Source of the DNA: a virus
Lineage: Duplodnaviria; Heunggongvirae; Uroviricota; Caudoviricetes
Reading direction: 5' to 3' (one strand)
IMG/VR virus record: IMGVR_UViG_3300020577_006835
Span: 68,588 to 132,587 of that record
DNA: 64,000 bases
In this document: positions 1 through 42,778 of the stretch, piece after piece
Numbering within the stretch: the stretch's first letter is position 1
How the letters are laid out: each line of letters opens with the position of its first letter
Notes under the pieces: model-generated
Seen by the model: the letters and a program-made list of their open reading frames with translations, nothing else
Databases searched by the model: none
What the model was told of the DNA's origin: nothing
Program-made: the position numbers and the translations under genes

Positions 1-699
1 TGGGCCGAGTCCGGCGCGACGCAGGATCTTGAAGATGCAATCCTGAAGGCGATCCCCGTCTTCGGGAAGATCTTTTGGTACAAGGTGGGCTGCGACGTTG
101 GCTTCGTGACCGCTTCGGACTACTTGTCCAGCGTGTCCTACAAGCTGCTCGTCGTGATGCAGGGCAAGTCGCTACCCCTAGACTGTGAGCTGTCCTACGT
201 GAGCTACCTGTACAAGGTGGTTCGCGGCAGCATCCTGGCCGAGTACGGCAAGGCGCGCTCACACTCGCAGAGGGTCTTCTCCTCGTGGACCTCGTGCGCC
301 ATGCCGCCGCAGGGGCGCCTGGTCAGCGTGGCCGACGTGGACGCCAAGCTGTTCATCGAGGCGCTGCCCAGGATGATCGCCGTGAACGTGGCGCCCAGGA
401 TTCGCTTCAGTGGCGTGAAGCGCAGAGCGTGCCTCGTGATCCTGGAGAGGTACGCCACTGGCAAGCTGCTCTCGAAGCGCATGATCGAGAAGTACTTCAA
501 CCTGCCCAAGGCTGAGGTTGAGTTCTTGATGGAGTACGTCGCAGTGGCCGTGCGCCGGTACCTGTACGACATCAGGGACGACCTTCGTGAGGTGGGCGGC
601 GCAGCCATTCACTGGAGGGAGCTGTACGAGTGGGTCAACCCGCCGACAGCTGTGTACCGCTCCGGGTATTTCGATGAACGAACGCCTTCAGTTGCTTGA
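1..699 (+). CDS. hypothetical protein, 5' partial (frame is open to window start; first in-frame ATG at 85)
   Basis: ORF track 85..699; translation in this frame has no stop from nt 1; high GC3. Confidence 0.55.
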   Translation, partial: WAESGATQDLEDAILKAIPVFGKIFWYKVGCDVGFVTASDYLSSVSYKLLVVMQGKSLPLDCELSYVSYLYKVVRGSILAEYGKARSHSQRVFSSWTSCAMPPQGRLVSVADVDAKLFIEALPRMIAVNVAPRIRFSGVKRRACLVILERYATGKLLSKRMIEKYFNLPKAEVEFLMEYVAVAVRRYLYDIRDDLREVGGAAIHWRELYEWVNPPTAVYRSGYFDERTPSVA

Positions 700-1042
700 C
701 CTTGACGTCGCGCAGTACGTCGACGCCCTCATGGTGCTCCTGGTCAGGCAGTACGAGGCGACGCACCTGCCCGACCTGCTGAGCGTCTTCGGACCGGAGA
801 AGCTGGCCAAGTTCCTGACGCTCTTCGCTGGCACCACTATTCAGGTGCCGTCAACACAGATACTATACAAGCTTGCGCGTGATGCAGACATCTACACGAC
901 CATGAAGCGTGGTGGAGAGGTTGCGGCGCTCGCACGCCGCTACGACATGACTCAGTCAGAGGTCGTGCAGGTGCGGGCGCGGGTAGCAAGAGTGGTGGAC
1001 GAGGTGGTTGATGGCGGAGGAAAAGCCGAACAGCAAGGATGA
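674..1042 (+). CDS. hypothetical helix-turn-helix-like protein; small-terminase candidate
   Basis: ORF 587..1042 with start moved to ATG 674 (MNERLQLLDLD); high GC3; sits two genes upstream of large terminase. Confidence 0.5.
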   Translation: MNERLQLLDLDVAQYVDALMVLLVRQYEATHLPDLLSVFGPEKLAKFLTLFAGTTIQVPSTQILYKLARDADIYTTMKRGGEVAALARRYDMTQSEVVQVRARVARVVDEVVDGGGKAEQQG

Positions 1043-1607
1043 TGTCCTTGGTCTGAACAAGACGATTCCGGTCTTGGACCTGGAGCCGTTGGAAGAAGTG
1101 TACTCTCTCGACATTGCGCGAGAGAACCTGCTCGCCCTGTCGCGAGCGGCCGCGCTTGGGGGAGAAGAGTCGGAGGCCGTGGCCGAGACGGCCGATCTGG
1201 TCACCAAGGCCTTCCAGACCGACCTCAAGACGGTCCAGATCGCCTACGGGCGCGCGATCGCCAACCGCAGGACCATCCTGCTGGGGCTCATCGACTCGAT
1301 CGAGAAGAAGCTCAACACCAAGCGTGTCCTGACCAACGACGAGCTGCTCCGCTACCAGATGAACGCGTGGCGCATGGTCATGGACATCACCAAGACCATC
1401 GAGGACACGGTGCAGAACCCGCCGATCGGTGTCGGTGGTGAGCGCTCCGCTGCCCGCGGCCCGCAGACCGAGAAGAGCGTGCAGGACCTCAAGCGTGAGC
1501 GCGCAGCGCGCGACGTCATGCGTGAGCTGCTGGAGCACGTCGACAAGGAGCTGAAGGGGCGACTCGACGTCGTCGCAGAGAGGCCTGAGAAGGAGCCGGC
1601 AGAGTGA
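1011..1607 (+). CDS. hypothetical coiled-coil protein directly upstream of terminase large subunit; small-terminase candidate
   Basis: ORF 1008..1607; stop overlaps GTG start of next gene (GTGA at 1604-1607). Confidence 0.5.
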   Translation: MAEEKPNSKDDVLGLNKTIPVLDLEPLEEVYSLDIARENLLALSRAAALGGEESEAVAETADLVTKAFQTDLKTVQIAYGRAIANRRTILLGLIDSIEKKLNTKRVLTNDELLRYQMNAWRMVMDITKTIEDTVQNPPIGVGGERSAARGPQTEKSVQDLKRERAARDVMRELLEHVDKELKGRLDVVAERPEKEPAE

Positions 1608-4600
1608 CTCCTGATGAGGTGAGGAAGAAGCTCGCCGCCTCTCTCGAAGAAGAGATCGACCTGCAGATCGAGAAGGAGAAGCAGCGCCTGTTCAGCAGTC
1701 GCGACGGGGTCGACTCAGCCCTGAAGGCTCTCATCAAGTCGAGCGGCCGCGCTGACCTGCTGTACTACTTCAAGGACCTGCCGGAGGAGTGCAAGGACCA
1801 GGTCTACGACATCCTGCGTGCCCGCCTGCAGAACCCGACCGCTCCGCGTGGCGAGTTCGAGAAGGTGATCTGGGAGCCGGACTACGAGGAGCAGCCGATC
1901 TCGATCGAAGAGTTCCTGCAGTCCAAGTATCACATCGGGAAGTGGTACTACGAGAACATCTTCCCAAAGTGGAAGGAAGAGATCACGCAGGTGATCAACA
2001 AGGGCTGCATCGAGTGGGTGCTCGGCGGCTCGATCGGTTGCGGGAAGTGTGTTGAGGCCTCCACTCTGATCAACACCGACGAAGGCTTTGCAACGATCAG
2101 AGACGTGTACTGGGGCAACACACTCGGACCAGACACCTGCTCCGCAGTCCAGGCAGAGTCAGGTGTCAGAGAAATTCAGCAGGTCCACGACGAAGGTGTC
2201 ACCGAGACCCGCCGACTGAGGACGAAGCACGGCCACGTACTCGAAGGCAGACCGAACCACCGCGTTAGGGTTCTCGGTCCAGACTTGTCCTTGTCATGGA
2301 AGACGCTCGGTGAGATCGAACCTGGTGACTGTGTTCTTGAGCAGCCTGCAACCGTGTTCGGGAAAACCGATCTGCCATCTGAAGTGGCCGAGTTGCTGGG
2401 CTGGTTCATTGCTGAGGGTGTGCGTGAGGAGGGGAGCCCGAAGGCGGCCGTCAACACGGCGCGACTACACCTGCATGACGATGAGATTGACTATGTAGAG
2501 CAGCTGGCCAGGAGAGCTGCAGAGTTCTTGCAGGCTGACGTCTCAGTTAGCCGCGAGTACAGATATGTCTCTGTAACTGGTGGCCGTGTGCGCGATGTCT
2601 TCCCTTCCGGAACCAGCAAGGTGAAAACTGTCCCGGACAGCATCCTCACAGGTACGAGGGAGACGATCTGCGCCTTCTTGCGAGGGTTCTTCAGCGGTGA
2701 TGGGCACTCCGGACCGGTGGAGTGCTCGGCTGTCACTGTGTCACAGTGTCTGGCAGAGCAGGTCCGAGTGCTGCTCACCTCACTGGGTATGTACTGCTCG
2801 CTAACAACGAGTACAGCCTCGTACCGGCTGGCCGGTGAGCGCATCGTCACAGGCGACAAGTACCTGATTCGAATCCTCGGACCAGATTCCTTGAAGCAGT
2901 TCGCTGAGGAGATCGGATTCGCTCAGGAGAGCAAGCAGCAAGCTCTGATTGAGTTCGCAACACGGTGGTCACCTAACTCGGATCACTCGTTCGCGTTCAA
3001 GCTCTCGGCTGAGCAGCTGGGTGTGCTGCGGGAGCTGCAGCCAAGGTACAAGCCGAATGAGCTGCCAGATGGCGTCAACAAGCGCACCTCGCCGCGTGGA
3101 CTTCTACACCGGCTGGCGAAGCAAGGGTGCACAGTTCGACTGCTTCGGCAGGTTGAGGCCGCCGGAGGCTTCCTGCCTGGGCCGCTTCACCGGGTCGCGA
3201 CTGGGCAGCTCCTGTTCGACACGGTGGAGAGCGTCGAGGTGAGCGAGGGTCACTGCTACGACCTGACGGTCTCTGGTGACCCGTCCTACATCAGTGGCGG
3301 GTTCGTGAGTCACAACACCACGGCCGCCATGCTGATCACTCTGTACAAGGTGTACGTGGTCTCGTGCATGAAGGACCCGTGCGGCTTCTACACGGCCACC
3401 TCGATCGTCTTCGGCTTCTTCTCGATCACCAAGGATCTGTCGAAGGACGTCGAAGCCAACATGCTGCGCACGCGCCTCATGGAGTCCGAGTACTTCAGGC
3501 GCGCGGTCGGCATGACCGAGGAGGTCGATGACCCGCGGCGTCCGAACGCGATGATCTTCAAGTTCCCGAAGAACATCAAGCTCGTCTTCGGCTCCCGCGC
3601 ACTGCACGCTCTCGGACAGGACGTGTTCGGCGGCATCATGGACGAGGTGGCCTTCGACACTTCGTCCGGTGGCCGTCAGGTGATCGAGCTGTACAACTCG
3701 ATCAAGTCCCGTATCAAGTCGCGATACATGACCCACGCCGGCCGCGTCCCCGGCATCCTGTGCATCTCGTCGTCGGCTGACAAGGAAGGCGACTTCATCG
3801 ACAAGCACATGAAGGACGCCCAGTTCAAGGACAAGACGCACATCTCGTCCTTCGCGCTGTACCAGATGAAGCCGTACAGCGGCCCGACCTTCCGCGTCCT
3901 GGTCGGTGATCAGAGCCAGAAAAGCAAGCTGCTCGACAGAGTCGACGTCGACATGGAGCAAGGCTCGATCGAAGTGGTCCCGGTCGACGAGGCGCCCGAG
4001 GGGTTCCGCGTCGAGAACGTGCCTGTGCACTACTGGGACGACTACGAGCTGGACATCGAGAAGGCGCTCAAGGACATCTCCGGCATCCCGCTCTTCTCGG
4101 CCTCGCCGTTCTTCCCCAACAGGCAGAAGATCTTCCAGCTGATCGACGAGAACAGGAAGCACCCGTTCTCTGTCGACGAGCCGATCCTGACGACCGCTGA
4201 CGACGACTACACGCTGGAGTCTCTGTTCGACCGGGAGGCGCTCTTCGTCAAGCCGGACCCGTACGAGAACCGCTTCCAGATGCGGATCAACCCGGGCACG
4301 CCGCGCTTCTTCCACGTCGACTTGGCCAAGAGTCAGGACTCGGCGGGCCTGGCCTGTGTCCACCTGTTCGGCTCGAAGAAGGTGCTCCGCATCGGCCAGG
4401 ATGGCCGGCCTGGTGAGACCTACCTGCCGTACGTCTACGTCGACTTCATGGTCCGTCTCAGGCCGCCGGCAGAGAAGGGCGAGGAGATCGACTTCTCGAA
4501 GATCGTCTCCTTCATCTTCTACCTGCAGCAGCTGGGCTGCCCGATCGGCGAGGTGACCTTCGACCGGTACCAGTCGAGCCACTCGATCCAGCTCTTCAAG

Positions 4601-4987
4601 AAGCAGCACATCGAGTCGCGTGAGATCAGCATGGACATCACGCCCGCGCCGTACCTGACGCTGCAGTCAGCGTTCAACGCCGGCTGCATCTCGTACTACC
4701 GGTACCCGACGTTCCTGACCGAGGCGACCAGGCTGCAGAAGGACCCCAAGACCGGCAAGGGCGACCACCCGATCGGAGGGTCGAAGGACGTGCTCGACGC
4801 CGTGACCGGCGCCCACTACGCCTGCTTGATGTCGAAGTCGACCGAGATGCAGATGGCTGCGCCCCACCTCATCGTGCGCGGCATCACACCCCCGAGGCCG
4901 ACGGCCCCGGAGGTCAAGAACTGGGCGGCCAAGGACTACAAGGACTTCGACTCCATGGTCGACATCTTCGATGACAGCCTCCGCTGA
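1604..4987 (+). CDS. terL: terminase large subunit (ATPase/nuclease), interrupted by one intein
   Basis: Extein reconstitutes Walker A GGSIGCGK|TTAAML once the intein is removed; Walker B-like GGIMDEVAF; about 704 aa extein. Confidence 0.85.
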   Translation: MTPDEVRKKLAASLEEEIDLQIEKEKQRLFSSRDGVDSALKALIKSSGRADLLYYFKDLPEECKDQVYDILRARLQNPTAPRGEFEKVIWEPDYEEQPISIEEFLQSKYHIGKWYYENIFPKWKEEITQVINKGCIEWVLGGSIGCGKCVEASTLINTDEGFATIRDVYWGNTLGPDTCSAVQAESGVREIQQVHDEGVTETRRLRTKHGHVLEGRPNHRVRVLGPDLSLSWKTLGEIEPGDCVLEQPATVFGKTDLPSEVAELLGWFIAEGVREEGSPKAAVNTARLHLHDDEIDYVEQLARRAAEFLQADVSVSREYRYVSVTGGRVRDVFPSGTSKVKTVPDSILTGTRETICAFLRGFFSGDGHSGPVECSAVTVSQCLAEQVRVLLTSLGMYCSLTTSTASYRLAGERIVTGDKYLIRILGPDSLKQFAEEIGFAQESKQQALIEFATRWSPNSDHSFAFKLSAEQLGVLRELQPRYKPNELPDGVNKRTSPRGLLHRLAKQGCTVRLLRQVEAAGGFLPGPLHRVATGQLLFDTVESVEVSEGHCYDLTVSGDPSYISGGFVSHNTTAAMLITLYKVYVVSCMKDPCGFYTATSIVFGFFSITKDLSKDVEANMLRTRLMESEYFRRAVGMTEEVDDPRRPNAMIFKFPKNIKLVFGSRALHALGQDVFGGIMDEVAFDTSSGGRQVIELYNSIKSRIKSRYMTHAGRVPGILCISSSADKEGDFIDKHMKDAQFKDKTHISSFALYQMKPYSGPTFRVLVGDQSQKSKLLDRVDVDMEQGSIEVVPVDEAPEGFRVENVPVHYWDDYELDIEKALKDISGIPLFSASPFFPNRQKIFQLIDENRKHPFSVDEPILTTADDDYTLESLFDREALFVKPDPYENRFQMRINPGTPRFFHVDLAKSQDSAGLACVHLFGSKKVLRIGQDGRPGETYLPYVYVDFMVRLRPPAEKGEEIDFSKIVSFIFYLQQLGCPIGEVTFDRYQSSHSIQLFKKQHIESREISMDITPAPYLTLQSAFNAGCISYYRYPTFLTEATRLQKDPKTGKGDHPIGGSKDVLDAVTGAHYACLMSKSTEMQMAAPHLIVRGITPPRPTAPEVKNWAAKDYKDFDSMVDIFDDSLR
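2048..3316 (+). mobile_element. intein (423 aa) with LAGLIDADG homing-endonuclease domain, inserted in terminase P-loop after GK
   Basis: Begins with Cys after GCGK (codon tgt at 2048); ends ...GFVSHN followed by Thr (aac at 3314-3316, acc next); internal LGWFIAEG and FLRGFFSGDG LAGLIDADG-like motifs; block F/G YDLTVSGD..VSHN. Confidence 0.8.
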
Positions 4988-4998
4988 GCTGCGATACC

Positions 4999-5304
4999 AT
5001 GACCAAGCGTCAGGCGATCAGGGCTACGGCCAAGCGGATGGGTATCCAGGACGCTGTCCTGGAGAAGCATGTCAATGAGTTCTTCAAGTACGTGGCGGAG
5101 GCTCTGGTCCTTGGTGAAGAGGTTTGGATCTCTCCGATCGGCAAACTGGTCGTCAAGGAACTGAAAAATACCAAGCGTCGAAGGTTGTGGCTGGAACCGT
5201 GCGCCTCAATGAAGTCGACGCTGAAGCGAAACCCGATCGAGGTTCCTGACTGGTACCGGAGTCTGGGAGTGGTGGTGGAGGAGGAACATGGCACAGCAGA
5301 ATAG
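4999..5304 (+). CDS. hypothetical protein
   Basis: ORF track; coding-like codon usage; between terminase and portal. Confidence 0.5.
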   Translation: MTKRQAIRATAKRMGIQDAVLEKHVNEFFKYVAEALVLGEEVWISPIGKLVVKELKNTKRRRLWLEPCASMKSTLKRNPIEVPDWYRSLGVVVEEEHGTAE

Positions 5305-8300
5305 GGGCAGGTTCAGAGACCTCGTAGCCCGACTCTTCACGCGCGACGAGATCATCGAACCGGTCCGCATGGACGGTGAGCCGTCCCTGAGTCCGATCTC
5401 CTCGTACTACCGGACGCGGATGGAGCTGAGTTCCAACCGCATCAAGAGGTACAAGGACTACCGCGACATGGGCGAGGACACGCTCATCAGCGGTGCGCTC
5501 GACATGTACGCCGACGAGGCCGCACAGTTCGACCGCCAGGAGGGGAGGACCGTCTGGGTCGTCTCCAACAACAAGGAGGTCGAGAAGGCCATCCACACCA
5601 TGCTTGACGCGACCGAGATGGAGGAGCAGATCCCCGGTCTCGCGCGCTACCTGGCTCAGCACGGTGACAACCCGGTCCGTCCTCTGGCAGACAAGAACAA
5701 GGGCATCGTGGCCATGGAGTTCTTGGAGGCCGAGGACTTCGAGCGCCAGGTCGACAAGTACGGGCGCTTGACCGGTTTCAGGATTCTCCCTCTCGGCGAC
5801 CGCAGCTTCGACCCCTGGGACATCGTCCACTTCAGGATCATGAACCGCACGCAGACCGTGCGGCAGGGTGGCAGCATCTACGGCACGTCCGTGCTGGAGA
5901 ACGCTCGCAAGACGTGGAGGCAGCTCTGCCTTGCCAAGGGGACCACGATCTGGACCACGGCAGGGCCGAAGAGCATCGAGGACGTCCGGGCCGGCGACGA
6001 TGTGTTCTGCCACGACCCTGACACCGGCGAGACGGCTCAGACACGCATCGTGGCTGCCAAGGCGATGGGTCGGCAGAAGCTCGTCCGGGTGCAGACCGAG
6101 CACCGGGAGCTGTTCGTCACCCCGGATCACGGCCTGCTCGCGAAGACGCGTGGTGGTGAGTTCGTCTACAAGAAGGCCGAAGACTTGGTCCAGAGCGAGG
6201 GGCAGGCGGGCAAGCTTTTCCGCGATGCGGATCAGCTGGTGCTGCCCAGCTTGGATGGCGGCGTCGACCACCACGTCATCAAGCTGAACCCGAAGGACTA
6301 CTATGTCCACCTGAAGGAGCCAGCGCAGTACGACTCGGACGGCGTCGTGGGTCGGCTGTCGGACTTGGGGCTCAGCACGAGCCTGAAGAACGCACACGGG
6401 TTCCTCGCCGCAAAGCGTGGCATCCGACTCGATGACTTCTGCAAGCTGCGCCGGGCGTTCTTCGGTGGTCAGCACCCGGACATGGTGGTGACCTGCGGCA
6501 AGAGCACGCGGCCGACGGTGGCGAGCTTCGGTCCGGCCAACGACCGGCCGTTCTTCGTCGCTGGCAGTGACTTCGTGCGTCTCCTAGGTTTCATGCTCGG
6601 CGACGGCTGGGTCAACGAGGGTGGGCGGATCGGCTTCGCGCTCGGCGTCGACGAGAAGCAGAACGAGGCCTACCGGCAGCTCTTCGAGGAGATGTTTCAC
6701 GTCGAGATGGCGACGGTGCCTTCGAAGCCGGGGCAGGGTGGGCAGCACTACGTCGGCTCGATCGACATCGAGAAGATCTTCAACGCGGCCGGGTTCGTGA
6801 CTGGGTTCGCGAACAAGGTCGTCCCGGAGTGGGCCTACAACCTGTCGCCGTGGCTCAAGGTGCACCTGATCCGGGGCATCATGGACGCCGACGGGTGTGA
6901 GGGCGACGGTCGCCTCACCGTCGCCAACGAGCAGCTCGCGCGTGGCGTGCACACGCTCTGCCAGCAGGCTGGCCTGCGGGTGAGCCGGAAGATCAGCACG
7001 CAGGATCGTGAGGACCGTCAGCGCTCGTACCGGTTCTGGGTGGAGAAGATCCCGCTCATGGATCGGTGGATGCCAGAGGCCGTGGTGTACGAGCGTGTCA
7101 CGCACGTCGACCCGGCTGGTGAGGGCGAGACGTACGATCTTCAGGTCGACGACGACCTGCACAACTTCGTCGCCAACGGCGTGGTGTCGCACAACACGCT
7201 GCTCGAAGACCAGCTCGTCATCTACCGTCTGGAGGTTGGCGGCAGGCACCGCGTCTTCTACATCGACGTCGGCACCGCTTCGCACGAGCAGGCGCTGGCC
7301 ATCACCAGGAAGTACGAGCGGCAGTTCGGCAGGAAGCAGTACTTCAACCCGCAGTGTCTGACTGCCGACACCAAGGTCTTCACGCTCGACGGCCGTCAGT
7401 TGCGAATGGATGAGATGGCGGCTGAGGTTGCGGCTGGCAAGCAGCAGTGGGTGTACAGCTACGACATCAACAAGAAGAAGGTTGTCCCGGGTAGAGTGTT
7501 GTGGGCAGGCAAGACCGGCGCAGCGGTGCGTGTGTGCCGTGTCCAGCTCGACAACGACACGTCCGTCATGTGCACGTTGGACCACCGGTTCCTGGTGAAG
7601 CGTGACGATGGCAAGCGTCACGAGTACGTCGAGGCGTCGAAATTGCAGCCTGGCGATTCGATCACGCCGGTCAACTTCAAGCTGTCTGACAAGGGTCAAG
7701 GTGACCTACTGTCCGGTTACAGAATGGTGTGGCAGGACAGGTTCGACAACTACCAGTATGTGCACCGTGCTGTAGCCCACGCGGCGATTGGCACCCCGAG
7801 GAGAGCCGACGGCACGTTCCAGCCGGACTACCTGGTACACCACCAGGACTTCAACAAGCTCAACAACGCGCCTGAGAATCTGGAGTGGAAGACTCACCAG
7901 GACCACGTTGACCACCATGAGAAGCACTCGAAGAACCTGGAGCTGGGCCGCATCAGGCTGCAGGAGATTCTCAGCGGTGAGGAGCGTGAGGAGTACCTCT
8001 CCAGGCGTGAGAGGGCGAGACAGGAGGCTATCGCAGCGAACCCGGAGCTGCGTTCAAGACTGGCGGAGGCGTCGGCGGCAACGCTGAGAGCGTGGAACAA
8101 GTCGGACAGGGCCAAGGTCGAGCGGAAGAAGTCGATGACAGCACGCTGGCAGGTCAAGCCGGCTGAGATCACTGACTCACTGGTTCGGGGCAAGGTGAAC
8201 TCGGTCTTCGCGGAGTTGAAGCGCAGGAACCTTCCGATCACCGAGGAGGCGTGGAACTCAGTTGCTCGTCAAGGGCAGATCTCGTGGGTGAAGGCGAAGA

Positions 8301-9286
8301 CCAGGTACCCAGAGATGTTCAACTTCAACCACAAGGTCGTCTCCGTGACGGTCGGTGGCAAGGAGGACGTCTTCGACATCGTCGTCGAGCAGTACCACAA
8401 CTTCGCTGTGGCTCTCGAAAACGAGAGCGGCGTGTTCGTGCACAACAGCGGCGAGTGGACCTCGCGCTTCACACCGCTGCAGCTCACGTCCGAGATCTTC
8501 TGGCCGATCCGCGGCGAGTCGGCATCCCGGATCGAGTACCTGGGCACCGACCCCAACGTGCAGGGAATCGCCGACCTGGACTACTTCCGCAACAAACTGT
8601 TCGCCAGCTTGAAGATCCCCAAGGCGTACATCGGCGGCGACGAATACTCGTCTGCCCGCTACGGCCTGGCGCAGATCGACATCGCCTTCGCACGCTCCGT
8701 GCAGCGCCTGCAGCGCGCCCTGATCAACGGCATCACGCGCATGGGTCAGATCCACCTCGCCTTCCTGGGCAAGGACCCGACCCAGGCCGAGAACCAGTTC
8801 CAGATCATGATGAGCCCGCCGTCGACGCTGGACCAGGAGCAGCGCATGGAGGCGCTGGACCTGTCACTCACGCTGTCGATGAAGATGAAGCAGATCGGCG
8901 AGGCGCTCGGCCTCGATGACCAGGCTCTGAACGCGTACATCCAGAAGACCATGCTCGGTCTGACGCCGTACGACCTGAGCCGCATCACGGCGCAGATGCC
9001 AGGCGCGCAGCAGGATCAGGGGTTCAACCCACAGGTCATGGACCACCTGATCAGGACCGTCAACGGAGACCCGGAGGCGGCCGGCTACCGCCCTCGTGGC
9101 GAGCGTGGCGACGACATCTTCCCCAAGCTGGGTGACCAGGGGATTCTGGCCGAGTCGCTGGTGGGCTCCTACAGGTCGGAGGCTGACAAGCTCGGCTTCG
9201 AGGAGTTCTTCGGCGAGACCACCGAGGAAGAGGTCATGAGGCTGCGCTCCAAGATGCGGGTGTCTGACAAGGCTCCGAAGGGCTGA
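5288..9286 (+). CDS. probable portal protein carrying two inteins (extein about 545 aa)
   Basis: Position immediately after terminase; after removing the two intein-like insertions a portal-sized (about 545 aa) protein remains. Confidence 0.65.
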   Translation: MAQQNRGRFRDLVARLFTRDEIIEPVRMDGEPSLSPISSYYRTRMELSSNRIKRYKDYRDMGEDTLISGALDMYADEAAQFDRQEGRTVWVVSNNKEVEKAIHTMLDATEMEEQIPGLARYLAQHGDNPVRPLADKNKGIVAMEFLEAEDFERQVDKYGRLTGFRILPLGDRSFDPWDIVHFRIMNRTQTVRQGGSIYGTSVLENARKTWRQLCLAKGTTIWTTAGPKSIEDVRAGDDVFCHDPDTGETAQTRIVAAKAMGRQKLVRVQTEHRELFVTPDHGLLAKTRGGEFVYKKAEDLVQSEGQAGKLFRDADQLVLPSLDGGVDHHVIKLNPKDYYVHLKEPAQYDSDGVVGRLSDLGLSTSLKNAHGFLAAKRGIRLDDFCKLRRAFFGGQHPDMVVTCGKSTRPTVASFGPANDRPFFVAGSDFVRLLGFMLGDGWVNEGGRIGFALGVDEKQNEAYRQLFEEMFHVEMATVPSKPGQGGQHYVGSIDIEKIFNAAGFVTGFANKVVPEWAYNLSPWLKVHLIRGIMDADGCEGDGRLTVANEQLARGVHTLCQQAGLRVSRKISTQDREDRQRSYRFWVEKIPLMDRWMPEAVVYERVTHVDPAGEGETYDLQVDDDLHNFVANGVVSHNTLLEDQLVIYRLEVGGRHRVFYIDVGTASHEQALAITRKYERQFGRKQYFNPQCLTADTKVFTLDGRQLRMDEMAAEVAAGKQQWVYSYDINKKKVVPGRVLWAGKTGAAVRVCRVQLDNDTSVMCTLDHRFLVKRDDGKRHEYVEASKLQPGDSITPVNFKLSDKGQGDLLSGYRMVWQDRFDNYQYVHRAVAHAAIGTPRRADGTFQPDYLVHHQDFNKLNNAPENLEWKTHQDHVDHHEKHSKNLELGRIRLQEILSGEEREEYLSRRERARQEAIAANPELRSRLAEASAATLRAWNKSDRAKVERKKSMTARWQVKPAEITDSLVRGKVNSVFAELKRRNLPITEEAWNSVARQGQISWVKAKTRYPEMFNFNHKVVSVTVGGKEDVFDIVVEQYHNFAVALENESGVFVHNSGEWTSRFTPLQLTSEIFWPIRGESASRIEYLGTDPNVQGIADLDYFRNKLFASLKIPKAYIGGDEYSSARYGLAQIDIAFARSVQRLQRALINGITRMGQIHLAFLGKDPTQAENQFQIMMSPPSTLDQEQRMEALDLSLTLSMKMKQIGEALGLDDQALNAYIQKTMLGLTPYDLSRITAQMPGAQQDQGFNPQVMDHLIRTVNGDPEAAGYRPRGERGDDIFPKLGDQGILAESLVGSYRSEADKLGFEEFFGETTEEEVMRLRSKMRVSDKAPKG
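5927..7195 (+). mobile_element. portal intein 1 (423 aa) with LAGLIDADG endonuclease domain
   Basis: Starts CLAKGTTIWT (tgc at 5927); ends YDLQVDDDLHNFVANGVVSHN followed by Thr (aac 7193-7195); internal LLGFMLGDG and IRGIMDADG motifs. Confidence 0.75.
7355..8446 (+). mobile_element. portal intein 2 (364 aa) with HNH endonuclease domain
   Basis: Starts CLTADTKVFTLDG (tgt at 7355); ends DIVVEQYHNFAVALENESGVFVHN followed by Ser (aac 8444-8446); internal HNH motif DYLVHHQDFNKLNNAPENLEW..H..DHH. Confidence 0.7.
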
Positions 9287-9288
9287 TT

Positions 9289-9870
9289 GTGGGCTCCATC
9301 AAGAACCTCATCGACTACGTGAACACCGTCGACGAGATGGTGGAGGACGCCAAGATGTACCTGGACGCCTACGAGAAGGCCCTGCCGTTCACAGGGGACC
9401 GCCGTGAGGTTGTTGTCGACTGGAGCGATCAGGCGTACTACAACGCCGACATGAGCGTGAAGGTAGGCGGAGCCAACACAACGGTGCAGGAGGTCGAGTG
9501 GGACGCCTGGGCCAGGCGGGAGATCGAGAACGCCGAGCTGAAGTACAAAGCGATCCTGAATCGCAACATGGAAGAGGTCAGGGAGGAGGCTCGCAACAAG
9601 ATTGCCGACAAGCTCGCCGCTGACGCGGCCAGGGTCAGGATCGGCAGACTCGACAGGGGCACTCTGATGGGTATCTCTACCGGTCCGACCCCAGAGCTGG
9701 TGACCAAGAAGGCTGGCAAGTCTACATACTACCAACCGCGCCGTCCCAGCCAACCCAACCTCAACCTGCCAGAGCGTGAGGTCATCACCCCGTCCAGGAG
9801 GCGCTCGGAACCGCCACCGCCGACCCGTGACCTGGACCCGAAGCGGGAGATCTCGCTCGAAGATGATTGA
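9289..9870 (+). CDS. hypothetical protein with C-terminal KREISLEDD tail
   Basis: ORF track (GTG start); ends ...KREISLEDD with stop overlapping next start. Confidence 0.55.
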   Translation: MGSIKNLIDYVNTVDEMVEDAKMYLDAYEKALPFTGDRREVVVDWSDQAYYNADMSVKVGGANTTVQEVEWDAWARREIENAELKYKAILNRNMEEVREEARNKIADKLAADAARVRIGRLDRGTLMGISTGPTPELVTKKAGKSTYYQPRRPSQPNLNLPEREVITPSRRRSEPPPPTRDLDPKREISLEDD

Positions 9871-10753
9871 CCAGCGCACCTTGGAGGAGCGTCTCGACTA
9901 CCTGCGCGAGATGCTTGACATCGACGAGTCGAAGCACGTCGCGACTCATCGCGGTGTCCCTCACAGACAGGACTATCTCGACCTTCACTACGATCGGTAC
10001 CCGCACAAGCAGACCGACAAGGAAGAGAAGCGCACACGAGCGGCTGTGCTCGCTGCGGCCGGCATCGCCTCGCTGATCGGCATCTCGAAGCAGAAGATGC
10101 TGCAGCAGTTCTACATGGCCGAGAAGTACCTCAAGCTCTCCAAGACGGCCAAGACACCGTTCGAGAGGCAGAAGGCTCTCAGGCAGTTCGAGTCCATGAT
10201 CCAGCTGATCAAGGCCGGGCTCAGGCAGTCGTACACCAAGAGCTACCGGCTGGGCGTGTCGTCGAGCGGTGTGGGCGGCCAGTTCCGCACCCGGGGCTTC
10301 ATGTCGCCCGAGGAGGCGCGCTGGGTCGAATCGGCTTTCAAGCACGAGATGCGCTACCTGAACCAGCTGGTCAACGACGTGAAGGCGGGCAAGTCTGTGC
10401 CCACGCTGGCCAACAGGATCGGGCTCTACGCCAAGGCGCTGGCGGCGGCTTACAACTCAGGCCAGGTCATGGCCACGAACCGGGACACGCTGATCCACTG
10501 GAGGCTCAGCCAGGACCCGGAGGTGCAGCACTGCGACGACTGCCTGTATCTGGCAGGGCTCAGCCCGTTCGTTCGTGATACGCTGCCCACGGTGCCCAAG
10601 GCGGGCATCTGCAGGTGTTCGAGCAACTGCCGCTGCGAGCTGGAGTACGAGGTCGTCAAGCAGGACGTGGCCAGTCAGGTGCGCGCCGGCAACATGAGCA
10701 AGACGTACGTGGTCCGGAAGATCCGAGACCGCCAGAGAGGCCGGTATGCTTGA
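9863..10753 (+). CDS. hypothetical protein with C-terminal Cys-rich motif (CDDC...CRCSSNCRCE); possible head morphogenesis protein
   Basis: ORF 9776..10753 with start moved to ATG 9863 (MIDQRTLEERLDYLREM), which overlaps the previous stop. Confidence 0.5.
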   Translation: MIDQRTLEERLDYLREMLDIDESKHVATHRGVPHRQDYLDLHYDRYPHKQTDKEEKRTRAAVLAAAGIASLIGISKQKMLQQFYMAEKYLKLSKTAKTPFERQKALRQFESMIQLIKAGLRQSYTKSYRLGVSSSGVGGQFRTRGFMSPEEARWVESAFKHEMRYLNQLVNDVKAGKSVPTLANRIGLYAKALAAAYNSGQVMATNRDTLIHWRLSQDPEVQHCDDCLYLAGLSPFVRDTLPTVPKAGICRCSSNCRCELEYEVVKQDVASQVRAGNMSKTYVVRKIRDRQRGRYA

Positions 10754-11918
10754 AGAGCACGATGACGACATCCCAGTCCTGTCCCTCGAAGACCCGGAGA
10801 TCGAGGAGAACGACGGGGAAGCAGTCGAGAACGCGGTCAAGGGCTCGATCCGCTACGCCTTCATCGGCTCCGGACAGGGTGGCTCGCGGCTGGCGGCCGA
10901 GGCGTACAAGATCGGCTACCGCAAGACGATCTGCATCAACACGGCCCCGCAGGACCTGTCGGCGATCCAGATCCCCGAGGAGCAGAAGCTCTGCCTCGAC
11001 ATCGGTCCAGGGGGCGCCGGCAAGGACCCGGCCCGCGGCGAGGAGGCGACGACCAAGCATCAGCAGGCGATCTACAACCTGATGAAGCAGGTCTTCGGCA
11101 AGCAGATCGACCACATCATGATCTGCGCCGGTGCCGGCGGCGGTTCGGGCGGAGGCTCGGTGCTGCCGCTGATCATGATCGCCAAGCGCTACCTCCAGTT
11201 CCTCGGCCATGTAGAGGATCTTGACAAGCGCGTCGGTGTGGTGCTAACGCTCCCTACCAACAGTGAGGTCGTCGCAGTCCGGGTGGCGTGGAACGCCTAC
11301 CAGGTGGCCTCCAAGGTGTCGGACTTGGCCGAGGCGGGCTCCATCGCGCCGCTGGTCGTGGTCGACAACGACAAGGTCCTGGAGCTGAGACGCGGCATCC
11401 CGATGGTCAAGATGTGGCCAACGGTGAATTTCGATGTGATGAACCTGTTCCACATCTTCAACTTGCTGTCGTTGAAGCACTCATCGTACACGTCCTTCGA
11501 CCCGTCCGACTACGCGTCGGTGGTCAAGGCAGGCGGTCACACGATCATGGGTGTGACGTCGGTCAAACCGGAGCAAGCACAGAACGAAACAGAGATCATG
11601 CGGGTGGTGAAGTCGTCGCTCGACCGCACGTTGCTGGCAGATGGGTTCGACCTGTCGACGGCGACGCACGTGGCGGCGATCGTCATGGCCGGCCGGCAGA
11701 CGCTGGAAGAGGTCCCTGGACTGGCCGAGGTGATCGAGTACGTGTTCAGCATGCTGGGCACGCTGACCAGCGCGCAGCTGGTGCATCGCGGAGTGTACGA
11801 GGACTCACGGCCAGGGCTCAGGATTTACACGATCGTCTCCGGACTGCAGCGTCCGCTCACCAGGTATCGTAGACTCGAAACGCTCTCGCGTGAGAGGTAC
11901 CCTTTCACAGAGCGTTGA
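10746..11918 (+). CDS. tubulin/FtsZ-superfamily GTPase (PhuZ/TubZ-like phage tubulin)
   Basis: FIGSGQGGSRLA (N-terminal GTP loop), INTAPQDL, GPGGAGKDPARG, and tubulin signature-like ICAGAGGGSGGGS align with FtsZ GVGGGGxNA / VNTDAQAL / GLGAGANPEVG / AAGMGGGTGTG. Confidence 0.8.
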   Translation: MLEEHDDDIPVLSLEDPEIEENDGEAVENAVKGSIRYAFIGSGQGGSRLAAEAYKIGYRKTICINTAPQDLSAIQIPEEQKLCLDIGPGGAGKDPARGEEATTKHQQAIYNLMKQVFGKQIDHIMICAGAGGGSGGGSVLPLIMIAKRYLQFLGHVEDLDKRVGVVLTLPTNSEVVAVRVAWNAYQVASKVSDLAEAGSIAPLVVVDNDKVLELRRGIPMVKMWPTVNFDVMNLFHIFNLLSLKHSSYTSFDPSDYASVVKAGGHTIMGVTSVKPEQAQNETEIMRVVKSSLDRTLLADGFDLSTATHVAAIVMAGRQTLEEVPGLAEVIEYVFSMLGTLTSAQLVHRGVYEDSRPGLRIYTIVSGLQRPLTRYRRLETLSRERYPFTER

Positions 11919-11930
11919 GGTAGACTGCAC

Positions 11931-12005
11931 AGCGACGTGGCTCAGCTGGCCTAGAGCGCCTGGCTCATAACCAGGAGGTCGTCGGTTCGAATCCGACCGT
12001 CGCAA
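11931..12005 (+). tRNA. tRNA-Met (anticodon CAT)
   Basis: Cloverleaf by eye: D-arm GCTCAGCTGGCCTAGAGC, anticodon loop CTCATAA, T-arm GTCGGTTCGAATCCGAC; coordinates +/-2. Confidence 0.75.
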
Positions 12006-12010
12006 CTCGG

Positions 12011-12084
12011 TGCGGGGTGGAGCAGTTGGAAGCTTGCCGGGCTCATAATCCGGAGGTCGCAGGTTCGAGTCCTGCCCCCGCTTC
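12011..12084 (+). tRNA. tRNA-Met, initiator-like (anticodon CAT)
   Basis: Strongly resembles bacterial tRNA-fMet (GCGGGGTGGAGCAG...GGGCTCATAA...GGTTCGAGTCCTGCCCCCGC); coordinates +/-2. Confidence 0.75.
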
Positions 12085-12189
12085 TCTTCGACTCCCGTCG
12101 TCCCGTCCCCGCGGGGCGGCGCCGAGCAGACCAGCCAATCGGGGGCCAGGCAATTGTGCCTGGCTCCTGTTGGCCCTGCAGATGCCCTG

Positions 12190-12498
12190 ATGAGCGCACT
12201 ACGCATGGTAGAGGTAGCCACCTCCCGCTTTCGCGAGGTGACCGCTGTCACAGCCGTTGGGAGCAACGTGCGCGTGACGGTCGACTACCGCATGAACAAC
12301 AAGTTCCTGCCCGCCTTCCTGGAACAGCTTGACCGCGCGCTGCACGCCACCTACAACGCGGCGCTCATCGTCGAACCCTTGAGCGATGACCAATTCGCAG
12401 CGGACCCGAACTTCGAACGCACACCTGGAACTGGACCGATCGTGCCGACAACGTGGGACTGGATGAACAAGAAGGGAGAGAAGAATGGCAAGCGTTGA
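12190..12498 (+). CDS. hypothetical protein
   Basis: ORF 12154..12498, start moved to ATG 12190 (MSALRMVEV). Confidence 0.45.
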   Translation: MSALRMVEVATSRFREVTAVTAVGSNVRVTVDYRMNNKFLPAFLEQLDRALHATYNAALIVEPLSDDQFAADPNFERTPGTGPIVPTTWDWMNKKGEKNGKR

Positions 12499-12826
12499 AG
12501 CGAAGAAGTGTGATCAGTGTGGAACGGTGGAGCACGGCGAGCAGCTGGGCAGCTGGGTAGGGCTGGCCAAGCCGAACGGCGTCATGCTGATCGGCCCCAT
12601 CTACGAGGTGGCGGCCACGGTCAAGCGCCTGTACGGCGACTTCTCCGGGATCGAGGACATCGACCCGAGACAGCGCAGCGTCAAGGAGCTGTGCAGCCAG
12701 GGCTGCCTGCACGAGATGGTCTCGGCCCACTTGCAGAAGGGTGAGATGCAGGGTCAGAGCTACGGCCGGCGCCGCTCGATCGGCGTCACCGTGGACGACC
12801 TGACTGGTACGGTGGGAGTGGCGTGA
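12485..12826 (+). CDS. hypothetical protein
   Basis: ORF track; RBS GGAGAGAAGA upstream. Confidence 0.45.
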   Translation: MASVEAKKCDQCGTVEHGEQLGSWVGLAKPNGVMLIGPIYEVAATVKRLYGDFSGIEDIDPRQRSVKELCSQGCLHEMVSAHLQKGEMQGQSYGRRRSIGVTVDDLTGTVGVA

Positions 12827-13218
12827 ACGACCCAGCCTACACGCTGACCTGGGAGGAGTACCTGGCCGACATCGGGGAGCTGTGCGAGATCATCCGCTCA
12901 GCTCAGCTCTCCGTGTCAGCTGTGTACGGCATCCAGCCGCACGGCGTCATCCCAGCCTTCATCATCGCACAGCAGTTGCGCGTCGAGTACACGCCGCTCG
13001 CTCTGCCGGTGAGGATGAACGGCGGGACCATGCTCTGCGTCGACGGCTTCTCCAACCGTGGCGAGGATCTGGTCGCGTACCAGCGCGACTCCAAGACAGC
13101 TGCCGTGTACGTCAGGGACCGCCCGGACATCATCTTGCAGCCTCACTACTACGCGAAGGCCATCGAGGGCCTGATCCGCTTCCCTTACGAGCAGTCGCGC
13201 TCCCTCACAGGCCGCTAG
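12823..13218 (+). CDS. hypothetical protein
   Basis: ORF track (GTG start overlapping previous stop). Confidence 0.45.
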   Translation: MNDPAYTLTWEEYLADIGELCEIIRSAQLSVSAVYGIQPHGVIPAFIIAQQLRVEYTPLALPVRMNGGTMLCVDGFSNRGEDLVAYQRDSKTAAVYVRDRPDIILQPHYYAKAIEGLIRFPYEQSRSLTGR

Positions 13219-24657: not shown

Positions 24658-25107
24658 GTGAAGACTAAGGTTTGCACTAAGTGCGGTGCCAGGAAGCAGC
24701 TCGACCAATTTCACGTCAAGGATAAGCAGAGGGGGACGAGGCGAGCACGCTGTAAGCCTTGCTGGTCGATCTACAGGCGGCAGCACTACCTGGAGAACCA
24801 GAGCAAGTACATCAAGATGTCACGGGCTCGTGTTGTAGAGCATCGCCGCCGTCTTCGATTTCTGATTCTTGAGGCCAAGGCGAAGCCGTGTGCAGACTGC
24901 GACCTCTCATACCCGCCATGGGTGATGCAGTTTGATCATGTGCGGGGCAGGAAGCTCTTTCACCTGGGCGCCTACCGTGAAGACTACGTCTCGGTGCCCA
25001 CACTCCTGAACGAGATCAAGAAGTGCGACGTGGTGTGCGCGAACTGCCACGCTGATCGAACGTACAAGCGAAACCCGTACGACATCCCAGACAGCCCGTT
25101 CGTCTAG
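24658..25107 (+). CDS. HNH endonuclease (small free-standing family shared with 36387..36833 and 37826..38191)
   Basis: GTG start; PCADCDLSYPPWVMQFDHV...KCDVVCANCH; 3' end overlaps tRNA-Glu(TTC) by about 15 nt. Confidence 0.7.
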   Translation: MKTKVCTKCGARKQLDQFHVKDKQRGTRRARCKPCWSIYRRQHYLENQSKYIKMSRARVVEHRRRLRFLILEAKAKPCADCDLSYPPWVMQFDHVRGRKLFHLGAYREDYVSVPTLLNEIKKCDVVCANCHADRTYKRNPYDIPDSPFV

Positions 25108-41890: not shown

Positions 41891-42778
41891 ATGATGATGA
41901 ACGCACAGCGCAAGGCGAAGAGCAGCAGCAAGCGGAACGAGACGGTCGTCGATCTCCGTGAGTTCATCGCGGCCGGCATTCAGGGTGTGCTCCTGAGCCG
42001 CCGCTTCATCCCCGCCTCCGAGGCCCGCCAGACCGGCGACGAGTCGACGCTGGAGACCGCCCGCGGCCTCAGCACCCGCTTCCAGACCTCGATCACCGAC
42101 CGCGCCCGCGAGGGTGCCGACAAGGTCCTCGCCTTCATGGGCGAGCAGCAGTTCAAGATGGCGTCGGCGCGCAGCGAGTTCTCGCGCTCGCTGTCGGCCG
42201 AGTTCTCGAACGCGCGTCAGAACGGTGTGCGCGGCGACAAGGCCGGCATCGTCGTGTGGGCCATCAAGGTCTACATGGACGCCCAGAAGGCCGCCAAGGG
42301 GGCTCCTGCGGTCGAGAGCCGCAACGTGGTCTGCGAGGCGACCCGCATCGTCAACCTCTTCGCCAAGGCGACGGAGGCCGGCCTGCAGCACCCGAAGATC
42401 CGCCTTCAGGTCGAGAGCTTGGGCAAGGTGGTCTTCTCGCTCGCCGGCCCGCGCTCCAGCGCCCCGGGCTCGATCAACATCACCGACGGCCGCCCCTACG
42501 GCCAGAACACCTACTACGGCCGCATCACCAAGGACGGCCAGATGGTCCCCAGCAAGGCGTGCACGGACGAGGTCCGCGACCTGATCGTCTCGCTGGCCAC
42601 CGACCCTGCTGGTGTCGCCAAGGTGCACGGGCACCGGACCGGGTATTGCTGCTTCTGCGGCAGACTGTTAACGGACGACAGAAACGGGTTCTCGGTCGAT
42701 ATGGGTTACGGTCCGATTTGTAGTGAGAAGTGGGGGCTGCCGTGGGGTGTCAGCGTGTCGGAGGAGGCAAGTGCGTAG
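41891..42778 (+). CDS. hypothetical protein with C-terminal Cys-rich motif (GYCCFCGRLL...GYGPICSEKWG)
   Basis: ORF track. Confidence 0.55.
   Translation: MMMNAQRKAKSSSKRNETVVDLREFIAAGIQGVLLSRRFIPASEARQTGDESTLETARGLSTRFQTSITDRAREGADKVLAFMGEQQFKMASARSEFSRSLSAEFSNARQNGVRGDKAGIVVWAIKVYMDAQKAAKGAPAVESRNVVCEATRIVNLFAKATEAGLQHPKIRLQVESLGKVVFSLAGPRSSAPGSINITDGRPYGQNTYYGRITKDGQMVPSKACTDEVRDLIVSLATDPAGVAKVHGHRTGYCCFCGRLLTDDRNGFSVDMGYGPICSEKWGLPWGVSVSEEASA

What the first reader, a model, noticed from the sequence alone, without database searches (positions are those of the whole stretch)
1604..9286. Three inteins in the packaging genes: one in the terminase P-loop and two, of different endonuclease types, in the portal
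Terminase: a 423-aa LAGLIDADG intein splits the Walker A motif exactly between GK and T (GGSIGCGK|C...HN|TTAAM). Portal: a 423-aa LAGLIDADG intein (CLAKGTTIW...VVSHN|T) plus a 364-aa HNH-containing intein (CLTADTKVF...VFVHN|S), 53 extein residues apart. All three have canonical N-terminal Cys, a C-terminal HN and a +1 nucleophile. A P-loop insertion in terminase is a known intein hotspot. Two inteins with different homing-endonuclease families in one portal gene is unusual. It fits with the many free-standing HNH genes here and points to heavy selfish-element traffic.
Basis: partly seen in the sequence, partly recalled or inferred. Interest (0 to 1): 0.55.

Follow-up and report, generated by a model that had tools for sequence, protein, structure and literature searches.

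The report
Three inteins in phage packaging genes
The terminase and portal genes of this uncultured large phage are interrupted by three genuine self-splicing protein elements (inteins), at least one of which has recently jumped between distantly related phages; this is a clean new example of a well-known phenomenon, not a new kind of element.

Summary
TerL (1604-4987) carries a 423-aa LAGLIDADG intein (2048-3316) between the Walker A Lys and Thr. The T4-type portal (5288-9286) carries a 423-aa LAGLIDADG intein (5927-7195) and a 364-aa HNH intein (7355-8446), 53 residues apart. With the inteins removed, both proteins align without gaps at the junctions to intein-free homologues. A natural relative (portal 93%, TerL 87% identical) lacks exactly the two LAGLIDADG insertions and keeps the HNH intein. 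The portal LAGLIDADG intein is 86% identical to one at the same site in a portal whose exteins are only 56% identical, so it moved horizontally and recently. The HNH intein has diverged in step with its host gene under strong purifying selection (dN/dS 0.08; HNH domain 0.02). Both portal sites flank the part of the clip domain that docks terminase in T4. None of this is new in kind. The K|T P-loop site is the classic TerL intein site, and portal inteins are known. 29 of the 150 closest portal cluster representatives carry inteins, several of them two or three. The remark about "many free-standing HNH genes" was not confirmed. New members of a known kind; modest interest.

The parts
1604..2047 (+). 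TerL N-extein (aa 1-148), ending in Walker A GGSIGCGK
   Evidence: aligns to annotated terminase large subunits
2048..3316 (+). TerL intein, 423 aa, class-1 type with an in-frame double-motif LAGLIDADG endonuclease. Cys1 at 2048. Block B LEGRPNHRVRV at 2240-2272 (His present, Thr replaced by Arg). LAGLIDADG motifs LLGWFIAEG at 2393-2419 and FLRGFFSGDG at 2675-2704. Blocks F/G at 3251-3316, ending HN.
   Evidence: exact insertion relative to L006; homologues at the same site in P0076 and P0079
3317..4987 (+). TerL C-extein, starting with +1 Thr (TTAAM). Walker B GGIMDEVAF at 3629-3655, C-motif ILCISSSA at 3755-3778, nuclease-domain motifs at 4556-4576 and 4760-4789.
5288..5926 (+). Portal N-extein (aa 1-213), T4 gp20-type
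   Evidence: Pfam Portal_T4 6.4e-48 on the spliced protein; PDB 3JA7/6UZC gp20
5927..7195 (+). Portal intein 1, 423 aa, with a LAGLIDADG endonuclease, inserted at the position of T4 gp20 L264|K265 in stem helix alpha5. Block B LFVTPDHGLL at 6110-6139. Motifs LLGFMLGDG at 6581-6607 and LIRGIMDADG at 6866-6895. Blocks F/G at 7127-7195.
   Evidence: absent from L006; 86% identical allele in P0142/L020, whose exteins are 56% identical
7196..7354 (+). Portal middle extein, 53 aa (TLLED...YFNPQ), equivalent to gp20 265-317: the end of stem helix alpha5 plus the first half of the clip domain, including the positions of the gp17-docking tip residues
   Evidence: alignment plus the domain map in PMC4493910
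7355..8446 (+). Portal intein 2, 364 aa, with an in-frame HNH (HNH_3) endonuclease followed by a helical region, inserted at the position of gp20 S317|T318 in the clip domain. Block B VMCTLDHRFLV at 7565-7597. HNH core LVHHQDFNKLNNAPENLEWKTHQDHVDHH at 7832-7918. Blocks F/G at 8366-8446.
   Evidence: orthologous copy in P0001/L006, 88% aa identity, dN/dS 0.076
8447..9286 (+). Portal C-extein, starting with +1 Ser (SGEWTSRF)

Best explanation
The two adjacent DNA-packaging genes of an uncultured large phage carry three independent class-1-type inteins. The phage has a T4-type portal, a TubZ-like tubulin and 20 tRNA genes in this window. Each gene is translated as one precursor. Each intein then removes itself by the standard route: an acyl shift at Cys1, transfer to the +1 Thr/Thr/Ser, cyclisation of the terminal Asn, and formation of the peptide bond. 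This restores an intact Walker A loop in TerL, and an intact stem helix and clip domain in the portal. At the DNA level each intein is a homing element. Its embedded endonuclease (LAGLIDADG in two, HNH in one) cuts intein-free alleles in co-infecting relatives, and repair copies the intein in. The three differ in history. The portal LAGLIDADG intein has moved horizontally and recently. The TerL intein is present or absent among close relatives in three sub-lineages and has foreign codon usage. The HNH intein has been inherited vertically, with its nuclease domain kept under strong purifying selection. Shown: the anatomy, the exact boundaries, the contiguous exteins, the polymorphism, the horizontal transfer and the selection. 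Inferred: actual splicing and actual DNA cleavage.
For: Boundaries and catalytic residues. Family matches. Contiguous exteins. A natural relative, L006/L007 (portal 93%, TerL 87% identical), lacks exactly nt 2048-3316 and 5927-7195 and keeps the HNH intein. Portal intein 1 is 86% aa / 84% nt identical to the intein at the same site in P0142/L020, whose exteins are 56% aa / 57-64% nt identical. P0142's extein is 97% identical to the intein-free P0009. More distant alleles sit at the same site in P0140, P0141 and, as a mini-intein, in LR756508. The AF2 model of intein 1 matches LAGLIDADG inteins and I-DmoI. The TerL intein has homologues at the same K|T site in P0076 and P0079, while their close relatives P0074 and P0078 lack it. 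TerL intein GC3 is 0.69 against 0.92 for its extein. The HNH intein has dS 0.85 against 0.69 for the extein, and dN/dS of 0.076 overall and 0.023 in the HNH domain. The high-confidence part of its model matches solved intein splicing domains. No group I intron or other RNA family lies in 1-13000, and the antisense or other-frame ORFs have no Pfam match.
Against: There is no experimental evidence of splicing or cleavage. The TerL intein has Arg where block B normally has Thr (RPNH instead of TxxH), although its two homologues keep the same deviation. Pfam does not recognise a LAGLIDADG domain in portal intein 1, and a profile comparison with the TerL intein family was inconclusive. That assignment therefore rests on the motifs, the fold match and a sub-threshold Pfam hit in homologue P0140. 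The AF2 models are only moderately confident: mean pLDDT is 65 and 68, the splicing domain of intein 1 is poorly modelled (pLDDT mostly 40-65) and the HNH region of intein 2 scores 53-68. TerL intein identity to P0076 and P0079 (56% and 49%) is about the same as extein identity (54% and 48%), so it gives no direct sign of recent transfer.
Confidence: 0.9

Rival explanations
1. The insertions are inteins that still splice but whose endonucleases are dead, so they are now immobile passengers kept only because imprecise loss would destroy an essential gene.
For: This is the expected end state of the homing cycle. The HNH intein looks fixed and vertically inherited in its lineage. TerL intein divergence tracks extein divergence.
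Against: The HNH domain has the lowest dN/dS of any segment tested (0.023), which a dead nuclease would not show. Portal intein 1 was transferred recently between hosts that are 56% identical. Both LAGLIDADG inteins keep the acidic residue in both motifs, and these are invariant among homologues. Presence/absence polymorphism occurs in several lineages.
Confidence: 0.15
2. One or more of the insertions no longer splices, so the window carries packaging pseudogenes from a defective phage or a mis-assembled contig.
For: Only the non-canonical block B of the TerL intein (RPNH) and the metagenomic origin.
Against: Both ORFs are intact over 1127 and 1332 codons, with every splice-junction residue present. 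The same TerL precursor sequence is held independently (P0070, six member sequences on two contigs). Independent assemblies carry homologous inteins at the same sites. Purifying selection acts on the intein. The insertions are exact, in frame and a multiple of three bases long.
Confidence: 0.04
3. The interruptions are self-splicing introns carrying endonuclease ORFs, or plain domain insertions, rather than inteins.
For: Related phages do carry introns and free-standing endonuclease genes in TerL (for example Campylobacter phage IBB_35, PMC3322345). SP-15 and HSE3 TerL are annotated in pieces.
Against: The reading frame is continuous through all three. Each begins with Cys and ends with His-Asn followed by Thr or Ser. 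HINT/intein profiles match at both ends of each. There is no Rfam intron match.
Confidence: 0.01

Closest known systems
TerL1-a P-loop inteins of mycobacteriophages (Kelley et al. 2016, PMC5050341); the phiCbK TerL intein between K130 and S472 (PMC3556154)
   Same: Inserted between the invariant Walker A Lys and the following Thr/Ser of the large terminase. Carries a LAGLIDADG endonuclease. Distributed sporadically among related phages.
   Different: The TerL family differs: about 30% identity to the nearest annotated terminases of Stenotrophomonas and Vibrio phages. The intein itself has no close relative among cultured phages. Block B has Arg instead of Thr. The phiCbK intein begins with Pro rather than Cys.
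Portal-protein inteins of actinobacteriophages (Kelley 2016; bioRxiv 10.1101/2025.01.02.630785)
   Same: Inteins in the portal gene, polyphyletic, LAGLIDADG type.
   Different: Those papers assign their portals to InterPro IPR009279, whereas this portal matches Pfam Portal_T4 (PF07230); I did not compare the two directly. In the preprint, in-frame HNH and the other non-canonical inteins are listed only for DNA polymerase, minor capsid, terminase and thymidylate synthase, not portal.
Unannotated portal of the uncultured 484-kb phage LR756508 (L018 2264-6424), and metagenomic portals P0142, P0143, P0160, P0216, P0278
   Same: T4-type portals with one to three inteins. LR756508 and P0142 have an allele of portal intein 1 at the identical QL|T site. 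HNH inteins of the same family occur at other portal sites.
   Different: The combinations and sites differ: LR756508 has mini + mini + HNH, P0143 and P0216 have two HNH, and P0278 has mini + LAGLIDADG + mini. Among the proteins I examined, only P0001 shares the window's HNH site (Q|S in the clip).
LAGLIDADG intein endonucleases PI-PkoII, PI-SceI, TliVMA; I-DmoI
   Same: Architecture and fold of the endonuclease domain.
   Different: Sequence identity is only 12-17%, and the hosts and target sites differ.

Membership tests
Intein (HINT superfamily, class 1) | In-frame insertion in a conserved host protein whose flanks are contiguous in intein-free homologues | tested here: met
   Gap-free junctions in alignments to DLP3 and CAU_VPP01 TerL and to SP-15, LIS04 and HSE3 portals. 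Exact insertions relative to L006.
Intein (HINT superfamily, class 1) | Cys/Ser at position 1, His-Asn at the C-terminus, and Cys/Ser/Thr at +1 | tested here: met
   C...HN|T, C...HN|T and C...HN|S
Intein (HINT superfamily, class 1) | Block B TxxH | tested here: inconclusive
   The portal inteins have TPDH and TLDH. The TerL intein has RPNH (His kept, Thr replaced by Arg), and homologues P0076 and P0079 show the same deviation.
Intein (HINT superfamily, class 1) | HINT fold / profile match | tested here: met
   Pfam Intein_splicing 4.2e-6, 8.7e-12 and 8e-17. TIGR01445 and TIGR01443. The intein 2 model matches solved intein splicing domains at TMt 0.5-0.6. The TerL intein scores below Pfam's curated cut-off (27.1 against 35.8 bits) but passes TIGR01443.
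Intein (HINT superfamily, class 1) | Protein splicing actually occurs | not testable with these tools
   Needs expression or proteomics
LAGLIDADG homing endonuclease (double-motif) | Two LAGLIDADG motifs about 100 residues apart, each with a terminal acidic residue | tested here: met
   TerL intein: LLGWFIAEG and FLRGFFSGDG. Portal intein 1: LLGFMLGDG and LIRGIMDADG. The motifs are invariant in homologues.
LAGLIDADG homing endonuclease (double-motif) | Profile or fold match | tested here: met
   TerL intein: LAGLIDADG_3 2.3e-9 and PI-PkoII 1.4e-10. Portal intein 1: no Pfam hit and hhalign inconclusive, but Foldseek matches TliVMA, PI-PkoII, PI-SceI and I-DmoI at E 5e-11 to 1e-4, on a model with pLDDT 70-89 in that region.
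LAGLIDADG homing endonuclease (double-motif) | Site-specific cleavage of the empty allele | not testable with these tools
   Indirect support only: recent horizontal transfer of portal intein 1
HNH (beta-beta-alpha-metal) endonuclease, Pfam HNH_3 | Profile match and conserved His/Asn/His residues | tested here: met
   HNH_3 1.2e-6, 28.5 bits against a cut-off of 24.8. PHROG HNH families down to 1.8e-15. H162, H163, N171, H184 and H188 are invariant in six family members.
HNH (beta-beta-alpha-metal) endonuclease, Pfam HNH_3 | Beta-beta-alpha-metal fold | tested here: inconclusive
   The AF2 model has pLDDT of only 53-68 over the HNH region
Terminase large subunit | Walker A and B ATPase plus a C-terminal nuclease domain; similarity to known TerL | tested here: met
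   tblastn to annotated TerL at 2e-69 over 83% of the spliced protein. Motifs located. No hit in the local Pfam copy; the precomputed family of relatives is PF27249.
Portal_T4 (gp20-type portal) | Profile match across the stem, clip and wing core | tested here: met
   PF07230 6.4e-48 on the spliced protein; gp20 structures 3JA7 and 6UZC at 8e-9

The most novel reading that the evidence does not exclude
The portal HNH intein may be more than a parasite. It appears fixed and vertically inherited in its lineage, yet its nuclease domain is the most constrained segment measured (dN/dS 0.02). It sits in the clip domain, next to the terminase-docking tip. The excised HNH protein would be made one-for-one with portal subunits. 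It might have been recruited, either as a partner of the terminase (from memory, HK97-like phages need an HNH protein for packaging; I did not check this here) or as a weapon against co-infecting relatives. Alternatively, the three splicing steps might act as a conditional switch that times packaging.
Probability: 0.06. Interest if true: 0.65.

Novelty: new member of a known kind. Interest (0 to 1): 0.3.

Why it matters
The finding gives three precisely delimited inteins with natural empty-site alleles in hand. One of them, the portal LAGLIDADG intein, shows textbook evidence of recent transfer between hosts that are 56% identical. That makes it a good candidate source of a new site-specific endonuclease and of splicing domains for protein engineering. 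The finding also shows that T4-type portals of uncultured large phages are a neglected intein hotspot. About a fifth of the nearest cluster representatives carry inteins, mostly of the HNH type that the actinobacteriophage survey treats as non-canonical, at eight or more sites. This matters for annotation: several public records leave such genes unannotated or split. It does not change how inteins are understood.

Tried and rejected
- A megablast of the whole region against 50,697 phage records found nothing, so no cultured close relative exists.
- An IMG/VR scan with the portal extein found ten relatives, all intein-free at these sites, and not the window itself.
- An exact look-up of the TerL precursor P0070 found no record, so the source sample stays unknown.
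- MAFFT on the unspliced TerL mis-aligned the homologues' N-termini to the intein. I replaced it with an alignment of spliced sequences.
- The word-indexed search with portal intein 1 found only two fragments and missed its closest allele, P0142. P0142 appeared only in the exhaustive representative search.
- A profile-profile comparison of the two LAGLIDADG intein families was inconclusive (49.8% probability, motifs out of register). BLASTP shows the two 423-aa inteins are not close relatives, so their equal length is a coincidence.
- phmmer of the HNH intein against PDB sequences found nothing.
- I looked for elevated or depressed extein identity next to the junctions as a co-conversion tract. 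Window against L006 shows a dip around portal site b: 76-81% against an average of about 86%, with 6 differences in the first 21 nt downstream, including +1 Thr against Ser. The stretch is too short to interpret.
- The regex and custom-HMM hunt for free-standing HNH genes gave one motif-only candidate (24658-25107), which Pfam does not support.
- The long antisense ORFs (3104-4609, 5153-6475, 6584-7699) were rejected as GC-rich artefacts: no Pfam match, and my GC3-based gene caller did not select them.
Full report
**Observation.** The window has two long forward ORFs, 1604..4987 (1127 aa) and 5288..9286 (1332 aa).
- The TerL intein is aa 149-571 (423 aa, nt 2048-3316), GGSIGCGK|C...HN|TTAAM.
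- Portal intein 1 is aa 214-636 (423 aa, nt 5927-7195), WRQL|CLAKGTTIW...VVSHN|TLLED.
- Portal intein 2 is aa 690-1053 (364 aa, nt 7355-8446), FNPQ|CLTADTKVF...VFVHN|SGEW.
- 53 extein residues separate the two portal inteins.

Profile searches support all three.
- Pfam Intein_splicing scores 1.8e-28 on the portal, and 4.2e-6, 8.7e-12 and 8e-17 on the three excised inteins.
- LAGLIDADG_3 scores 2.3e-9 on the TerL intein and HNH_3 scores 1.2e-6 on portal intein 2.
- NCBIfam intein N- and C-terminal models and several intein-containing "exception" models also match.
- PHROG HNH families reach 1.8e-15.

With the inteins removed, the portal scores 6.4e-48 on Portal_T4, against 9.5e-34 for the unspliced protein, and matches the solved T4 gp20 structures. 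The spliced TerL matches annotated large terminases of Stenotrophomonas, Vibrio and Rhodobacter phages in a single piece across the junction (2e-69, about 31% identity). The spliced portal matches T4-type portals in a single piece across both junctions. Explicit alignments show no gap at any junction.
- TerL: GGSIGCGK-TTAAMLI against TGGIGSAKTTIALYT.
- Portal site b: RKTWRQL-TLLEDQLVIYRL against RSSYRILRLLEDSLIVARL.
- Portal site c: YFNPQ-SGEWTSRF against QVDVQSGEFASKK.

The condition that would have refuted the finding is therefore not met.

**A natural experiment.** The protein database holds a portal (P0001, 909 aa) that is 93% identical in its N-terminal exteins. It has the HNH intein at the same site but an empty first site, RKTWRQL-SLLED. 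Its contigs (Logan SRR9827758; NCBI WBZL01005874.1) encode a 703-aa intein-free TerL that is 87% identical and has an intact GGSIGCGKTTAAM. A blastn of the window against that contig breaks at 2047/3313-3317 and at 5927/7197, and runs straight through the HNH intein. An independent genome thus defines the two LAGLIDADG inteins as exact 1269-nt insertions.

**History of each intein.**
- **Portal intein 1.** It has alleles at the identical QL|T site in divergent T4-type portals: P0140, P0141, and a mini-intein in LR756508. It also has one very close allele. P0142's intein is 86% identical over all 423 residues without a gap, while the exteins are 56% identical. P0142's extein is 97% identical to the intein-free P0009. 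At the DNA level, identity rises from 64% in the N-extein to 84% in the intein and falls to 57% distally. This is recent horizontal transfer, which implies a working endonuclease at least recently.
- **TerL intein.** It has homologues at the same K|T site in P0076 and P0079, whose near relatives P0074 and P0078 lack it. Intein identity is about equal to extein identity there (56/54% and 49/48%), so the association is old with repeated gain or loss. Its GC3 is 0.69 against 0.92 in the extein, which indicates a foreign or poorly adapted sequence.
- **HNH intein.** Between the window and L006 it has dS 0.85 against 0.69 in the exteins, so it has co-diverged with its host. Its dN/dS is 0.076 overall and 0.023 in the HNH domain. 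It is therefore vertically inherited and its nuclease is under selection.

**Endonuclease assignments.**
- The TerL intein aligns to the LAGLIDADG intein PI-PkoII across both motifs (1.4e-10).
- Portal intein 1 gets no Pfam LAGLIDADG hit, and hhalign was inconclusive. It does have LLGFMLGDG and LIRGIMDADG, invariant among homologues. The endonuclease part of its AF2 model (pLDDT 70-89) matches TliVMA, PI-PkoII, PI-SceI and I-DmoI. Its homologue P0140 gives a sub-threshold LAGLIDADG_3 hit.
- The two 423-aa inteins are not close relatives of each other.
- The HNH intein belongs to a family found both in portals (at least three sites) and in TerL (P0085, P0087, P0098 and Bacillus phage SP-15), at 26-32% identity over the full length. 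C1, the block B Thr, HH...N...H...H and the terminal Asn are invariant. The high-confidence part of its model is a HINT domain.

**Where the portal sites lie.** I used the gp20 alignment (whose register I checked against N291/M292/R295/K296) and the published domain map (PMC4493910). Site b corresponds to gp20 L264|K265 in stem helix alpha5. Site c corresponds to S317|T318 in the clip domain. The 53-residue middle extein therefore covers the end of the stem helix and the clip tip that docks the terminase in T4. By inference, an unspliced portal subunit could not be functional. A dodecamer would need 24 splicing events and a TerL pentamer five more.

**Comparison with what is known.** The K|T P-loop site is described as the "classic" site (TerL1-a) in mycobacteriophages (PMC5050341) and is also used in phiCbK (PMC3556154). 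Portal inteins are known in actinobacteriophages. In-frame HNH inteins are known but counted among the non-canonical architectures, which the preprint calls rare (bioRxiv 10.1101/2025.01.02.630785). Multi-intein phage genes are known, for example crAss-like TerL with two inteins (PMC7886860).

An exhaustive search with an intein-free relative shows that 29 of the 150 best portal representatives are 730 aa or longer. All 29 carry Portal_T4 plus Intein_splicing, 12 carry HNH_3 and 4 carry LAGLIDADG_3. Those I read include portals with two or three inteins: P0143, P0160, P0216, P0227 and P0278. The uncultured 484-kb phage LR756508 has three. The TerL family likewise has inteins at five or more sites. 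The finding is therefore a correct and well-documented new instance of a known kind. The exact LAGLIDADG + HNH pairing and the clip site were not seen elsewhere among the sequences I read, but they are ordinary variations.

**Not confirmed.** The claim of "many free-standing HNH genes" did not hold up.
- A Pfam scan of 83 predicted proteins lists no HNH family among the 25 of 30 families shown, each with one member.
- A custom profile finds only the intein copy.
- ORFs in the gaps between predicted genes yield one Endonuclease_7-domain protein at 42727-43566.

**Other checks.** No Rfam family other than two tRNAs lies in 1-13000. The antisense and alternative-frame ORFs across the region have no Pfam match.

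**Verdict.** Novelty: new member of a known kind. Interest is about 0.3.

Noticed in passing
window 10746-11918 (+): A TubZ/PhuZ-like tubulin gene (Pfam Tubulin 3.1e-8, TubZ-like_C 9.1e-6) lies two genes downstream of the portal. The same position is kept in relatives L006/L007 and L020.
   Followed up: partly
window 11931-50250: 20 tRNA genes in five or so clusters within 64 kb (ARAGORN), including two tRNA-Met directly after the tubulin gene. Together with the 208-kb contig listed for the cluster of the identical TerL precursor (P0070), this points to a jumbo phage.
   Followed up: no
window 42727-43566 (+): A 280-aa ORF with a C-terminal Endonuclease_7 domain (2.4e-17). My GC3-based gene caller missed it, so its codon usage is atypical. 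It is a candidate free-standing homing endonuclease.
   Followed up: partly
window 2048-3316: The TerL intein has GC3 0.69 against 0.92 in the surrounding TerL exteins. This is the largest compositional break among the five gene segments compared (two extein sets and three inteins).
   Followed up: partly
window 4999-5304 and 587-1042: An HU-like DNA-binding protein gene (Bac_DNA_binding 2.7e-6) sits between TerL and the portal, overlapping the portal start by 17 nt. A Mor-family activator (4.3e-8) lies upstream of the packaging genes. Both are syntenic in L006.
   Followed up: no
L018 (LR756508.1 143500-152500) 2264-6424 and 401-2182: This unannotated 484-kb uncultured phage has a 1386-aa T4-type portal with three inteins: a mini at YGK|S, a mini at QL|T, and an HNH intein at EGK|S. 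The upstream 593-aa ORF also contains a LAGLIDADG-type intein.
   Followed up: partly
L019 (Bacillus phage SP-15) 2174-3793; L002 (Bacillus phage HSE3) 2417-5379: SP15_022, annotated as hypothetical, is the N-terminal part of a TerL carrying an HNH intein just upstream of the P-loop (...YFEV|CLSGDT...AFVHN|CVTGGIGLGKST). HSE3 TerL is annotated as three CDS around an intein that sits a few residues upstream of what looks like Walker B (GKDVF|C...HN|CAMLDEIEF).
   Followed up: no
relatives P0075, P0078, P0085, P0087, P0098, P0138 (TerL); P0008, P0015, P0143, P0144, P0160, P0216, P0227, P0229, P0233, P0278 (portal): This phage group has TerL inteins at five or more sites: GK|T, G|CGKS, the C-motif, FDxxQ|S and HPxxG|SKD. 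Portal inteins occur at eight or more sites. One HNH-intein family is shared between the two genes, which suggests repeated switching of sites between packaging genes.
   Followed up: partly
window 12000-64000: The auxiliary genes are unusual for a phage: RlaP, a poly(A) polymerase-family (PolyA_pol) nucleotidyltransferase, NAPRTase, UDP-galactopyranose mutase, an SPFH/Band 7 protein (30980-33046), dATP/dGTP diphosphohydrolase and cpYpsA SLOG.
   Followed up: no
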